Shown in pieces: positions 49,966 through 61,662 of a stretch of 64,000 nt of DNA. The position numbers were made by a program, and so were the translations under genes. The stretch is taken from the NCBI GenBank assembly GCA_016840085.1, contig JAEOTA010000054.1:96001-160000 (forward strand). Direction: 5' to 3'. The notes below the pieces were generated by a model, which was not told the origin of the DNA, did not search any database, and saw only the letters and a list, made by a program, of their open reading frames with translations. Position 1 is the stretch's first letter, and every line of letters begins with the position of its first letter. The stretch is from Promethearchaeota archaeon. Its GTDB lineage: Archaea; Asgardarchaeota; Lokiarchaeia; Sigyniarchaeales; SOKP01.

Positions 49966-51298
49966 TCAAAAGATATTATTATCTAAGACTATCGTTTCCT
50001 TCCTATCCGGACCAATAGATATCATAGCTATATCTACTTGAAGCTCTTCTCTGATTGCTTGAAGGTATATTTTCATGGTGTCTGGTAAAGTGTCATATCC
50101 TTTTTCTGAAATTTCTAACCACTTATCTCTACTCCTTTCTTCCCATCCTTCAAATGATTTATAAATTGGTTGGCATTTTTCTATAATCTCATGCTGAATA
50201 GGCCAACTTTCGAGTGTTTCTCCATTTAGTTCATATGCAATACACATCTTAATGGTGGGTATTCCTTGCAGAGCATCCAATAAAGTTATGATAATCTTAT
50301 CAATTCCATTTATCATTATCCCATATTTAATATTAAAGAGATCAATCCATCCGACTCTGCGTGGTCTTCCTGTTACCGTACCGTATTCATGACCTTGTTC
50401 TCTAATTTTTTCAGCAGTATCATTAAATAATTCAGTTGGGAATTTACCCTCTCCCACTCTAGAAGTGTATGCTTTAATTATACCAACTACTTTATTAATT
50501 TTTTTAGGAGGTATTCCTGTTCCAGCAGAAATTCCAAGGGCATTAGCATTTGAAGAGGTACCAAATGGGTAACAACCATGATCTATACATAAGAGATTGC
50601 CTTGAGCTCCCTCGAAAACAACTCTTTTACCGCTATCTATAGCCTTATTTAAGTAATATGCTGTATCGATTACATATGGTTTTAGTTGTTTACCATAAGA
50701 CTTATATTCTTCATAAATAGATTCTAAATCAACGTTCCAGCTCGGATCGTAAACCTGTATTATATCTTTCTTAATTTTATATAATTTCTCTAATTTAGGT
50801 CTTAATACGTCAGGATTGATCAGATCATAAATTCTTAATCCCCAACGAGCCGCTTTATCCGAATATGTTGGTCCAATTCCTCGTTTTGTTGTACCAGCCC
50901 TATATTCTCCCTTTGATTTTTCTTCTAAGCTATCCAACGTGCGATGGAATGGGAAAATAACGTGGGCAGTAGAGCTTAATTTCAAATTAATTTTTTTATT
51001 GAGCTTTTTTAAATTTTCAATTTCTTCAAGAAGAACTTTTGGATCGACCACACATCCATTTGCAATAACACATTCCTTTTCAAGTGGAGCACCACTGGGA
51101 ATTAACTTGAATTTGTATTTAATTCCATTTGCATTGATCGTATGGCCTGCATTATTTCCGCCATTGTATCTTACGACAACATCTGCTTTTTGGGCTAAGT
51201 AATCGACGAATTTACCTTTTCCTTCGTTTGGGGTTAGCATGCGATTTGCCTTGCTAAGCTCCCCAACTTAACCCCATAATTGCTATATTATTACTCAT
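49966..51298 (-). CDS. purA: Adenylosuccinate synthetase, split by a 31-nt intron: complement(join(49966..51227,51259..51298)), 433 aa spliced
   Basis: RYNGGNNAGHT, GTTKRGIGPTY, FEGAQG, EYGTVTGRPRRVGW. Exon 1 gives MSNNIAIMGLSWG; splicing restores WGDEGKGK. Confidence 0.93.
51228..51258 (-). other. BHB-type (relaxed HBh') micro-intron in purA mRNA, 31 nt
   Basis: GGGG-[AG^C]-UUAGCA...UGCUAA-CCCC-[AA^A]; removal joins G+AC to give the catalytic Asp codon. Confidence 0.85.
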
Positions 51299-59045: not shown

Positions 59046-59304
59046 ATGGCCCGCTGTCCAGAAAGTTTTTTTGTATACACAAATTAACATGGATTGCGGA
59101 GGGTTTATGAAATACCATTCAGCTATAAAACAAGTCGTCTGCCAATCATGTGGACTTTCTTTAACGAGGCATGAATTAGATCGTTATTGGAAAAAGGTGA
59201 GGAATGAAAATATTTCGGAGGTAGATGATACGCAGCAAAAGAAAAATCGACGTAAAGAATGGCTTGAATGGTATTCTTCTTCCAAATCTGATAAAGAATA
59301 TTAA
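59046..59304 (+). CDS. Small Zn-ribbon protein split by a 31-nt intron: join(59046..59063,59095..59304), 75 aa spliced
   Basis: Spliced product MARCPECGGFMKYHSAIKQVVCQSCGLSLTRHELDRYWKKVRNENISEVDDTQQKKNRRKEWLEWYSSSKSDKEY with complete CxxC...CxxC. Unspliced frame stops at TAA 59085. Confidence 0.85.
59064..59094 (+). other. BHB-type (hBHBh') micro-intron, 31 nt
   Basis: Exon helix CUGU/GCGG (extended by CCC/GGG), central helix CCAG/AUGG (one G-A), bulges AA^A and AU^U, intron hairpin GUU..UUUGU-AUAC-ACAAA..AAC. Confidence 0.83.
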
Positions 59305-59378: not shown

Positions 59379-60590
59379 TTAATTACCAAGCATTCTTTCA
59401 ATAATATCTTCTAATAATTCTGCTAATTTTTTTGCGGGAATATCTAATAAAGTAATTTCTAGATGCCTTCCTCGAGTAGCATCTTCAATTCTCACCGTTT
59501 TTGAAGCAATAATTTTAAGTTGGTTAAGTTGGCGTATATATTTTCTGAAACTCATTTTTACATGCGGTTCTACTAAATAACTCTCACATATTACCTTATA
59601 TTCTTCGTACGCATCATCAACAAGAGTAAAAGGTGTATCGGAGTTTATCAATGATCTCGTAATTCCATACAAAGCTAACAGCTCTTGATCTTTTAATTCG
59701 TCAATTATATCATTTCTAAATGTAGGATATACATCATCTGAAGCTTCTCTAATTATATCAGCTGTAATTAAGTTCAATTCTTCTTTATCGCAATATGACC
59801 CACTTTTTCTTAATATTTCAATTCCATGTCTCATGTTTTTATGGTCCACAACTATCTGAGAAACCATAGTTAATAGTTCTTCATCAATAACATATTCTTT
59901 AAGTGCTAATTCGCTGCGGTATTTTAAAATTTGCATTGCTTCATCAAATTCATAGGGTTCAAGTTTAATTCTCTCGTTCAATCTGCTTAAAATTCTTTCA
60001 TTTTCAATCCGCATCCAATCTTTACTTCTACAAATTAATAGCAATGATAATTTTGCGTTTTGATGTCCAAAAGTTTCTGCAATGTCAAGAAATGCTAAAA
60101 CATCATCAGGATTTAAAAGATGAATCTCATCTATTATCAATAACATATAACCTTGTTCCCGAATTAGTTGGGAGAGAATTAACTTTAAGGCTTCGTCGTC
60201 GCTAAAGCCTCTACCGCTTCCATGCTGATATTTAGCGAGAAGCTCTCTGATTATCTTACTTTTAGAACGAAAATTGATACAATTATAATATTCAATGAAG
60301 AGATTTACATCTTTTTCAGTTGCAATTGTTCTAAAATTTTTGCCGAAATATCTCGCAGTGCAAGTTTTTCCAACACCGCCTTTTCCCAAGATAAGACAAT
60401 TTATAGAAGGCTGCTCTTCTTCTTCCAAAATTCTCCTATAATTAAAAATTAATGTTTTTAGAGCGTCATCTCGACAATATAACTTGTCCGGCACCCAACT
60501 TAAATCAAGAGTTCCAGACATTCGAAAAACTGATTTTTTCCCAAATTCCTTTCTAAAAGCATCCTCGTCCATAATAAATCGAGTAAGCAA
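59379..60590 (-). CDS. cdc6: Orc1/Cdc6 family replication initiator
   Basis: WVPDKLYCRD, GKGGVGKT (Walker A), IIDEIH (Walker B), ILSRL, C-terminal wHTH. Confidence 0.9.
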   Translation of the reverse strand: MLTRFIMDEDAFRKEFGKKSVFRMSGTLDLSWVPDKLYCRDDALKTLIFNYRRILEEEEQPSINCLILGKGGVGKTCTARYFGKNFRTIATEKDVNLFIEYYNCINFRSKSKIIRELLAKYQHGSGRGFSDDEALKLILSQLIREQGYMLLIIDEIHLLNPDDVLAFLDIAETFGHQNAKLSLLLICRSKDWMRIENERILSRLNERIKLEPYEFDEAMQILKYRSELALKEYVIDEELLTMVSQIVVDHKNMRHGIEILRKSGSYCDKEELNLITADIIREASDDVYPTFRNDIIDELKDQELLALYGITRSLINSDTPFTLVDDAYEEYKVICESYLVEPHVKMSFRKYIRQLNQLKIIASKTVRIEDATRGRHLEITLLDIPAKKLAELLEDIIERMLGN

Positions 60591-60714
60591 AATATATTTA
60601 TTAATAAATAAGTAATAATGGCACAGATTAGGTAAAAAGTTTATTATACTTATGAATTTATGTTTTTTAACTAATAAAATGATTATGTAATAAATAAAAT
60701 ATATACATTTACAT

Positions 60715-61632
60715 TTAATCCATTTTATTTAAGGGATGCATCTGGGAGTATGCTTCTTTCAGCTTAGTTATATCATTTTTGGCGTAAATCCGTGTAGTAT
60801 TTGGATTTGAATGGCCTAAAATATCTTGTAATTCGCTAATATCCATTCCTGAACGTCTAAGATGAGTTGCCCCCGTATGTCGGAATATGTGTGGGGTGAC
60901 GATCTTAGAATCTGGAAACCCACATTTATCTTTTATGGATTTTATATCAGATTGAACAACGCGAGGATATAATTTCTGACTTCGAGTATTTACCAATAAA
61001 TAATCTTCAGAATCGTAATAAATTCTGTCATTGAGAACATCCTTAATAAGTTCTAAAGTCCTGTGATCTACAGGCACTATCCTCTCTTTATTTCCTTTTC
61101 CGCGAAGTCTGATATATTCTTTCTCAAAATCAATATCTCGAATTTTAATGTTACATAACTCACTTACTCTTGCCATCGTCGAGTATAATAACCTTACAAT
61201 TAAATAATAACGTTGGCTTTTACGAGAATTGAATAGCATTCTATCTTTTAATTTTTTAAAGATTAATTCTATATCAGACAAATCTAAAAATTTGGGTAAG
61301 CTTTCTTCAAGTTTAATCTTCGGTGTTTTAATCGTACTCATAGGATCTTTCGAAATGAATTCGTTAAGAACAAGAAATTTGAAAAATGAACGTAATGAAG
61401 CAATTTTTCGACTTATACCTTTTTTCGTGTAATTCATTTCATTTAACTTTTTCAAAAAAAATCGAATCTTTTGACGAATAAGCGGAGAATTTAATGAGAG
61501 ATCTCCTATAATATTAATAAATTTCTGAAGATCATAACGATATGCTTTGATGGTTGAAGAAGAACAGCCCTCCTCGACTTCTTTGGCTATTAAGAAGTCT
61601 TCTATAAAATCAGAAATTTTAGAGGTTTCCAT
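60715..61632 (-). CDS. xerA: XerA-like tyrosine recombinase (probable start ATG 61632; ORF track extends to 61662)
   Basis: TIKAYRYDL, LRSFFKFL, ARVSE, GKGNKER, PHIFRH, LGH, TTRIY: complete R-K-H-R-H-Y set. Confidence 0.85.
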   Translation of the reverse strand: METSKISDFIEDFLIAKEVEEGCSSSTIKAYRYDLQKFINIIGDLSLNSPLIRQKIRFFLKKLNEMNYTKKGISRKIASLRSFFKFLVLNEFISKDPMSTIKTPKIKLEESLPKFLDLSDIELIFKKLKDRMLFNSRKSQRYYLIVRLLYSTMARVSELCNIKIRDIDFEKEYIRLRGKGNKERIVPVDHRTLELIKDVLNDRIYYDSEDYLLVNTRSQKLYPRVVQSDIKSIKDKCGFPDSKIVTPHIFRHTGATHLRRSGMDISELQDILGHSNPNTTRIYAKNDITKLKEAYSQMHPLNKMD

Positions 61633-61640
61633 AATAAGAG

Positions 61641-61662
61641 ATGTATTATCATGATAATACAT
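61641..61662. promoter_or_regulatory. Perfect 22-bp palindrome upstream of xerA (putative operator)
   Basis: ATGTATTATCA|TGATAATACAT, 9-30 bp upstream of the probable xerA start. Confidence 0.5.

What the first reader, a model, noticed from the sequence alone, without database searches (positions are those of the whole stretch)
59046..59105. Second 31-nt BHB intron splits the CxxC knuckle of a small Zn-ribbon gene next to cdc6
mRNA: AUG GCC CGC UGU CCA GAA^AGUUUUUUUGUAUACACAAAUUAACAUGGAU^UGC GGA GGG. Unspliced it reads MARCPESFFVYTN*. Spliced it reads MARCPECGGFMKY...CQSCG, a complete zinc ribbon. A full hBHBh' fold is visible: outer helix U59057-G59096, G56-C97, U55-G98, C54-G99, then CCC(50-52)/GGG(101-103); central CCAG/AUGG (3 Watson-Crick pairs + G-A); bulges AAA (59062-64) and AUU (59093-95); intron hairpin with an AUAC loop. 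The ORF track mis-starts the gene inside the intron.
Basis: partly seen in the sequence, partly recalled or inferred. Interest (0 to 1): 0.88.

Follow-up and report, generated by a model that had tools for sequence, protein, structure and literature searches.

The report
tRNA-type mini-intron in Asgard zinc-ribbon gene
A small conserved zinc-ribbon gene of a Loki-type Asgard archaeon is interrupted by a 31-base hairpin shaped like the introns archaea cut out of tRNAs, and comparison with 91 related loci shows it is almost certainly removed from the messenger RNA, a kind of splicing that the papers I found document inside an archaeal coding sequence only for cbf5.

Summary
Observation confirmed. 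A 31-nt insert (59064-59094) with an in-frame TAA splits MARCPE|CGG; cutting after the second base of each 3-nt bulge restores a 75-aa zinc-ribbon protein. Of 91 distinct orthologous loci, 72 read CPE|C uninterrupted and 19 carry a 28-31-nt insert at exactly this site, in about four sequence types across two orders. All 19 keep bulge-helix-bulge geometry, with compensatory changes. Intron-bearing genes stay under purifying selection (dN/dS 0.12 versus 0.09), and the insert is better conserved than silent sites. Frameshifting, ribosome hopping, pseudogene and assembly artefact fail. Presence is patchy (at least 8 changes within family). purA, EF-2, rps3 and a small GTPase of this genome carry similar 30-31-nt inserts, so this is one case of a genome-wide system. 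Caveats: no RNA run was listed, so splicing is inferred; the central helix has one G-A mismatch; the catalytic EndA subunit is missing from this assembly (its region is unassembled; 35 of 36 congeners have it). The protein's function is unknown. This scan found the same intron earlier in another genome (e1-5591307) and similar ones in other Asgard genes. Verdict: new variant of a known kind (cbf5-type mRNA intron).

The parts
59046..59063 (+). Exon 1 (MARCPE); supplies the 5' strands of the outer helix and of the central helix (CCAG, 59058-61) and two bases of the 5' bulge
   Evidence: codons 4-6 vary only silently in the 19 intron-bearing alleles, and CCA-GAA is fixed
59064..59094 (+). 31-nt BHB intron, phase 0, with in-frame TAA at 59085-87; inner stem G65-U67 with A86-C88, hairpin with AUAC loop, 3' central strand AUGG 59089-92
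59095..59304 (+). Exon 2 (CGGFMKY...CQSCG...long helix), 69 codons plus stop; its first bases close the 3' bulge and the outer helix
51228..51258 (-). Second example in the window: 31-nt BHB insert in purA, splitting the Asp codon of WGDEGKGK; GGGG/CCCC central helix
   Evidence: 7 of 21 loci read carry it, 14 are intronless
59379..60590 (-). Neighbour only: convergent orc1/cdc6, conserved next to the gene in 64 of 91 loci; used for the tree

Best explanation
The insert is a bulge-helix-bulge intron in an mRNA. The precursor folds so that exon 1 (CCAG) pairs with the intron's 3' end (AUGG) between two 3-nt bulges, closed by an intron stem and an exon-exon stem. The two-subunit tRNA splicing endonuclease EndA cuts after the second base of each bulge (GAA^A and GAU^U) and RtcB joins the exons, giving MARCPECGG..., a four-cysteine zinc ribbon followed by a long helix. 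Unspliced RNA stops after 13 codons, so protein output depends on splicing. SHOWN: insert, exact borders by homology, geometry, selection on both the protein and the RNA shape. FROM ESTABLISHED KNOWLEDGE: EndA cut positions, RtcB ligation, tolerance of relaxed motifs by hetero-oligomeric EndA. INFERRED: that cutting and joining happen in this cell; that the site is favoured because the GC-rich Cys-Pro-Glu-Cys-Gly codons supply half of the motif in a 29.5% GC genome; that the patchy distribution reflects several gains plus precise losses or allele exchange. The intron is more likely a tolerated passenger than a regulator, because close relatives do without it.
For: 72 intronless loci fix the junction; 19 inserts of 28-31 nt sit at the identical position. 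Only the BHB register gives both the geometry and the conserved CPEC. All 19 have at least 3 Watson-Crick pairs in the central helix (AUGG, CUGA or CUGG: never more than one mismatch), and the first inner pair is G-C, C-G or G-U in all 19. 85% of cells pair against 21-38% when partners are slid; covariation score 0.181 against at most 0.06. Insert differences in same-genus pairs are 4-14% against silent-site differences of 20-43%. dN/dS 0.12 in intron-bearing pairs, 0.09 in intronless pairs; single copy, no spliced junction in the assembly. Same signature in purA, EF-2 (two), rps3 (two) and a small GTPase. RtcB and the structural EndA subunit are in this genome; the catalytic subunit is in 35 of 36 congeners, including the intron-bearing sister G024.
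Against: No transcript or cleavage data. The central helix has a G-A mismatch and the BHB conformer is 1.3 kcal/mol above the computed minimum (0-5.2 across the 19). The catalytic EndA subunit was not found in this assembly; about 17 kb around it in G024 also have no match, which points to an assembly gap. Covariation counts come from related sequences and from a structure drawn on one of them, so they are not probabilities.
Confidence: 0.93

Rival explanations
1. The insert is not removed; translation starts at the internal ATG (MKYH..., about 65 aa) or at a start inside the insert, giving a protein without the first CxxC.
For: Many database entries of this family are called as 66-aa proteins covering 86% of the query; this genome's ORF track starts at TTG 59071.
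Against: Codons 1-9 upstream of that ATG keep their amino acids with silent variation in intron-bearing alleles; C4, P5, E6, C7 are invariant in the family; half a zinc ribbon cannot bind zinc (general knowledge); it would not explain the conserved BHB ends.
Confidence: 0.02
2. The ribosome crosses the insert by recoding: a +1 frameshift on the U7 run, or a bypass hop like T4 gene 60 or mitochondrial byps.
For: U7 run in this clade; a hairpin and a stop codon in the insert; the landing codon equals the take-off codon GAA in 2 of 19.
Against: Insert lengths 28, 29 and 31 need shifts in both directions; 16 of 19 have U runs of 4 or less; a shift leaves about 10 extra residues inside the CxxC; the landing codon does not match in 17 of 19; pairing with both exons in exact 4+3 spacing is not needed for recoding.
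Confidence: 0.02
3. The insert inactivated the gene (pseudogene), or it is an assembly artefact.
For: The frame is broken; the genome is a metagenome assembly with 7.6% contamination.
Against: Nearly the same insert in two independent assemblies (L002, L052); all 19 spliced frames are open (18 of full length, one at a contig end) with dN/dS 0.12; no second copy.
Confidence: 0.01
4. It is spliced at these borders, but by another nuclease or ligase than EndA/RtcB, or it is excised at the DNA level.
For: The catalytic EndA gene is not in this assembly; precise intronless alleles are common among close relatives.
Against: The borders fall exactly at EndA's cut positions; EndA alpha is in 35 of 36 congeners; no terminal repeats, no second copy of the insert, no spliced junction in the DNA.
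Confidence: 0.02

Closest known systems
cbf5 pre-mRNA intron of Crenarchaeota (Desulfurococcales, Sulfolobales; Watanabe 2002, Yoshinari 2006, Yokobori 2009, PMC2738675)
   Same: Short (cbf5 16-44 nt; here 28-31 nt), no ORF, often relaxed BHB, borders at the second bulge base, interrupts an essential motif near the 5' end, patchy with precise losses, host has a two-subunit EndA.
   Different: Different phylum and host gene; phase 0 between codons instead of inside the catalytic Asp codon; several unrelated insert sequences at one site plus a second site nearby; many genes per genome instead of one; narrow length range; splicing here not yet shown by cDNA.
BHB introns of Asgard tRNA genes (PMC11291895; bioRxiv 10.64898/2026.10.13.758758)
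   Same: Same motif, same phylum, repeated gains, no copies shared between genes, arrival route unknown, two-subunit EndA widespread.
   Different: Those papers deal with tRNA genes; my term searches in them found no treatment of mRNA introns.
HVO_1309 5'-UTR BHB intron of Haloferax volcanii (PMC7714728)
   Same: EndA substrate in an mRNA.
   Different: Lies in the untranslated leader and does not break a reading frame.
Host protein: TFIIB/RPB9-like four-cysteine zinc ribbons
   Same: CxxC-x14-CxxC hairpin fold; weak Pfam hits below cut-off; Atlas clusters named 'putative TFIIB-type domain-containing protein'.
   Different: Stand-alone 75-aa protein with a long C-terminal helix ending in a WLxWY motif; no PDB match at E <= 0.001; function not established.

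Membership tests
Archaeal BHB (EndA-type) mRNA intron | [quoted passage not shown] | tested here: met
   CCAG/AUGG 3 of 4 pairs, bulges AAA and AUU; 19 of 19 orthologous inserts have at least 3 Watson-Crick pairs. Relaxed, not strict.
Archaeal BHB (EndA-type) mRNA intron | Flanking helices h (exon-exon) and h' (intron) | tested here: met
   h 96% paired, h' first pair 19 of 19, changes on both sides in all three h' pairs
Archaeal BHB (EndA-type) mRNA intron | Borders fall after the second base of each bulge and restore the conserved protein | tested here: met
   Only register 0 gives both CPECGG and the full motif; matches 72 intronless loci
Archaeal BHB (EndA-type) mRNA intron | Host gene is functional | tested here: met
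   dN/dS 0.12, full-length spliced frames, single copy
Archaeal BHB (EndA-type) mRNA intron | Host encodes a catalytic EndA and an RNA ligase | tested here: inconclusive
   RtcB (C83) and the EndA paralogue without the catalytic His (C79) are present; the catalytic subunit is not in the assembly, its region is missing too; 35 of 36 congeners have it
Archaeal BHB (EndA-type) mRNA intron | Spliced mRNA or excised intron observed | not testable with these tools
   No RNA holder was listed
Archaeal BHB (EndA-type) mRNA intron | Cleavage by EndA in vitro | not testable with these tools
   Needs a bench assay
Translational bypass element (gene 60 / byps type) | Matching take-off and landing codons | tested here: not met
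   Match in 2 of 19 only
Programmed +1 frameshift | Conserved slippery run and one shift direction | tested here: not met
   U7 in 3 of 19; lengths 28, 29, 31
TFIIB-type zinc ribbon (PF08271) | Score above the Pfam cut-off | tested here: not met
   16.1 bits against cut-off 29 for the intronless orthologue; the fold is a zinc ribbon all the same

The most novel reading that the evidence does not exclude
This lineage of Asgard archaea runs tRNA-endonuclease splicing on a standing set of protein-coding genes (here at least 7 introns in 5 genes, probably some tens per genome, including EF-2, rps3 and purA), with about 30-nt introns being gained and precisely lost between close relatives at motif-coding hot spots. 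[quoted passage not shown]
Probability: 0.8. Interest if true: 0.88.

Novelty: new variant of a known kind. Interest (0 to 1): 0.74.

Why it matters
The papers found say archaeal coding regions have one confirmed BHB intron (cbf5), with others only predicted. Several per genome in Asgard archaea would mean mRNA splicing of housekeeping genes exists there without a spliceosome, and it links translation output to the tRNA-processing enzymes. Close relatives that differ by one intron make intron gain and precise loss testable, which the 2026 Asgard tRNA preprint names as the central open problem. It also affects annotation: such genes are called truncated, mis-started or absent, which can distort completeness and gene-content claims. 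This single intron sits in a protein of unknown function, and the scan has already recorded it elsewhere, so the value lies in the system more than in this instance.

Tried and rejected
A genome-wide scan for BHB plus frame-joining (exons of 40 codons or more) showed no excess at 28-33 nt over five shifted-bulge nulls (about 10 chance hits per length; first attempt timed out): too weak to count introns, and it cannot see 5'-proximal or closely spaced ones. Source of the insert: no other copy in the genome within 6 mismatches. Reverse transcriptase as the route of precise loss: found in G000 only, not in 4 relatives searched, so unsupported. Protein function: Pfam below cut-offs, no PDB fold match at E <= 0.001, Atlas names generic. 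The promoter scan (sigma-70 model) is not suited to archaea and was not used. Literature: seven searches found no paper on Asgard mRNA BHB introns; the library lacks most subscription journals, so absence is not proven. The spliced protein has no reference, so an intronless orthologue (L003) and exon 2 were used for remote searches.

Full report
Observation. ATG 59046 opens MARCPE; 31 nt (59064-59094) follow with an in-frame TAA; then CGGFMKY...CQSCG... runs to 59304. Unspliced gives 13 aa, spliced 75 aa, and the gene is single-copy. The ORF list starts the gene at a TTG inside the insert. The pairings are right. The unconstrained fold has the AUAC hairpin and the central pairs but closes the 3' bulge in a shifted register (z -2.0); the BHB conformer costs 1.3 kcal/mol more.

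Organism. The closest named relatives are mostly labelled Promethearchaeota (Loki-type Asgard) metagenome assemblies. The genome has 4.68 Mb, 89 contigs and 29.5% GC.

Comparative test. The gene was found in 139 of 161 class genomes (a few weak hits there are other zinc ribbons) and widely in the phylum. Among 91 distinct loci that could be read, 72 are uninterrupted and all read CPE|C. Nineteen carry an insert at exactly this junction, 28, 29 or 31 nt long. They fall into about four sequence types: this genome's clade (three loci, central strand AUGG), a type spread through the genus (13 loci, CUGA), one locus in another genus (L144, CUGG) and two loci in another order (L042, L043). Whether the first two types share an origin is open. 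In every case the central helix against the exon's CCAG has at least three Watson-Crick pairs, and the single mismatch changes place. The first inner pair is G-C (16), C-G (2) or G-U (1). For the stated structure 85% of cells pair, against 21-38% when partners are slid, and the covariation score is 0.181 against at most 0.06; kinship inflates such counts. Shuffling each insert reproduces the motif in 0.3-1.6% of trials. Sliding the borders either loses the motif or changes CPEC. All 19 intron-bearing alleles use CCA-GAA, against 26 of 72 intronless ones, as expected if those exon bases are part of the motif.

Selection. Pairs of intron-bearing genes have dN/dS 0.12, intronless pairs 0.09. Spliced frames are 71-77 codons. 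Inserts differ at 4-14% of positions in same-genus pairs while silent sites differ at 20-43%, and the differences lie in bulges and loops, not in the central helix or the first inner pair. So both the protein and the RNA shape are maintained.

History. On a tree of cdc6 plus the spliced gene (51 rows, this family only; loci without enough cdc6 left out) the intron needs 8 changes, at least 6 forced by strong branches, and one clade of intron carriers is rejected (p-AU 2e-50). Counts cannot tell gain from loss. Related CUGA inserts scattered among precisely intronless sisters suggest one gain near the base of the main genus clade followed by repeated precise loss or allele exchange; the unrelated inserts of L144 and L042/L043 suggest separate gains at the same site (inference). 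L145, another genus, has a different 31-nt hairpin insert about 10 nt downstream with a four-pair central helix but weak flanking stems, so the knuckle codons look like a hot spot.

Machinery. RtcB is intact. Relatives have two EndA paralogues. This assembly holds only the one that lacks the catalytic His motif. The catalytic one is in 35 of 36 congeners, and about 17 kb around it in the sister genome have no match in this assembly, so a gap is the likely cause. Hetero-oligomeric EndA cleaves relaxed motifs (PMC2738675), and the two-subunit form is common in Asgard genomes (bioRxiv 10.64898/2026.10.13.758758).

Not an isolated case. purA in this window has a 31-nt insert in the Asp codon of WGDEGKGK with a GGGG/CCCC helix; 7 of 21 loci read have it, with an A-U for U-A swap in the inner stem of one. 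EF-2 and rps3 are broken in this genome and intact in G006, G012 and G050. A motif-free comparison with G006 over 718 orthologous reading frames found six frame-breaking inserts of 28-33 nt in this genome, all 30 or 31 nt (EF-2 two, rps3 two, a small GTPase, this gene), and none in G006. Five pass the BHB test on the sense strand within 6 nt of the aligned border; the sixth (first EF-2 insert) fits by eye at a register shifted further. The EF-2 and rps3 regions were chosen on purpose; the earlier sample, which included the region around this gene, gave 2 in 521. That points to some tens of introns per genome at most, a rough figure that misses introns shared with G006. A motif-only genome scan had no power.

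Host protein. The family has invariant C-P-E-C and CxxCGL motifs and a WLxWY tail. The model shows a zinc-ribbon hairpin followed by a 43-residue helix (pLDDT 81). Pfam hits are below cut-off, no solved structure matches, and Atlas neighbours are unnamed or 'TFIIB-type' clusters in Asgard, Bathyarchaeota and Nitrososphaerota; 191 representatives match the profile. A role in transcription or nucleic-acid binding is a guess from the fold.

Rivals. Frameshift: lengths need both directions, U7 occurs in 3 of 19, and the product would have a 12-residue gap between the cysteines. Bypass: landing codon matches in 2 of 19. Internal start: exon 1 codons are conserved. Pseudogene or artefact: refuted by dN/dS and independent assemblies.

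Known and new. cbf5 is the one coding-region case with spliced cDNA; other archaeal cases were only predicted, and a 2020 paper adds one 5'-UTR case (PMC7714728). Asgard papers found cover tRNA introns. This scan's notes report the same intron in another genome and similar ones in other Asgard genes; I used them as leads and tested purA, EF-2 and rps3 myself. Verdict: it works like the cbf5 intron (about 0.93); membership lacks the RNA-level proof; new variant of a known kind; interest 0.74.

Noticed in passing
window 51228-51258 (-): purA carries a 31-nt BHB insert in the Asp codon of WGDEGKGK; present in 7 of 21 congeneric loci read. Its outer exon-exon helix is weak.
   Followed up: yes
L145 (G136:C159, about 9500): A different 31-nt hairpin insert about 10 nt downstream in the same gene (CPECAG-K), flanked by a GGAAAG direct repeat, central helix CCGG/CUGG; flanking stems start with mismatches.
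   Followed up: partly
L196 (G000:C4, about 16170 and 16320) and L204 (G000:C85, about 142160 and 142250): Two 30-nt inserts in EF-2 and a 31- plus a 30-nt insert in rps3; G024 shares at least one EF-2 insert and has a broken rps3.
   Followed up: partly
G000:C24, about 30580: 30-nt stop-containing insert with BHB geometry in a small GTPase, at the switch-I segment PTVGVN.
   Followed up: partly
L258 (G024:C58:74205-74594): The catalytic EndA subunit of the intron-bearing sister G024 is the most divergent full match in the genus (78% to G006, others 81-98%); may be only tree distance.
   Followed up: no
window 59379-61662 (-): xerA-like recombinase directly upstream of orc1/cdc6, both convergent on the zinc-ribbon gene; the cdc6 link is kept in 64 of 91 loci, including another Asgard family.
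   Followed up: no
G000:C74:13766-14365: One reverse transcriptase gene (487-aa frame) in this genome, none found in four relatives.
   Followed up: no
G000 whole genome: ARAGORN finds only 13 tRNA genes, most with introns, which suggests heavily interrupted or unassembled tRNA genes.
   Followed up: no
L032, L050: Intronless orthologues appear to start with ATA instead of ATG.
   Followed up: no
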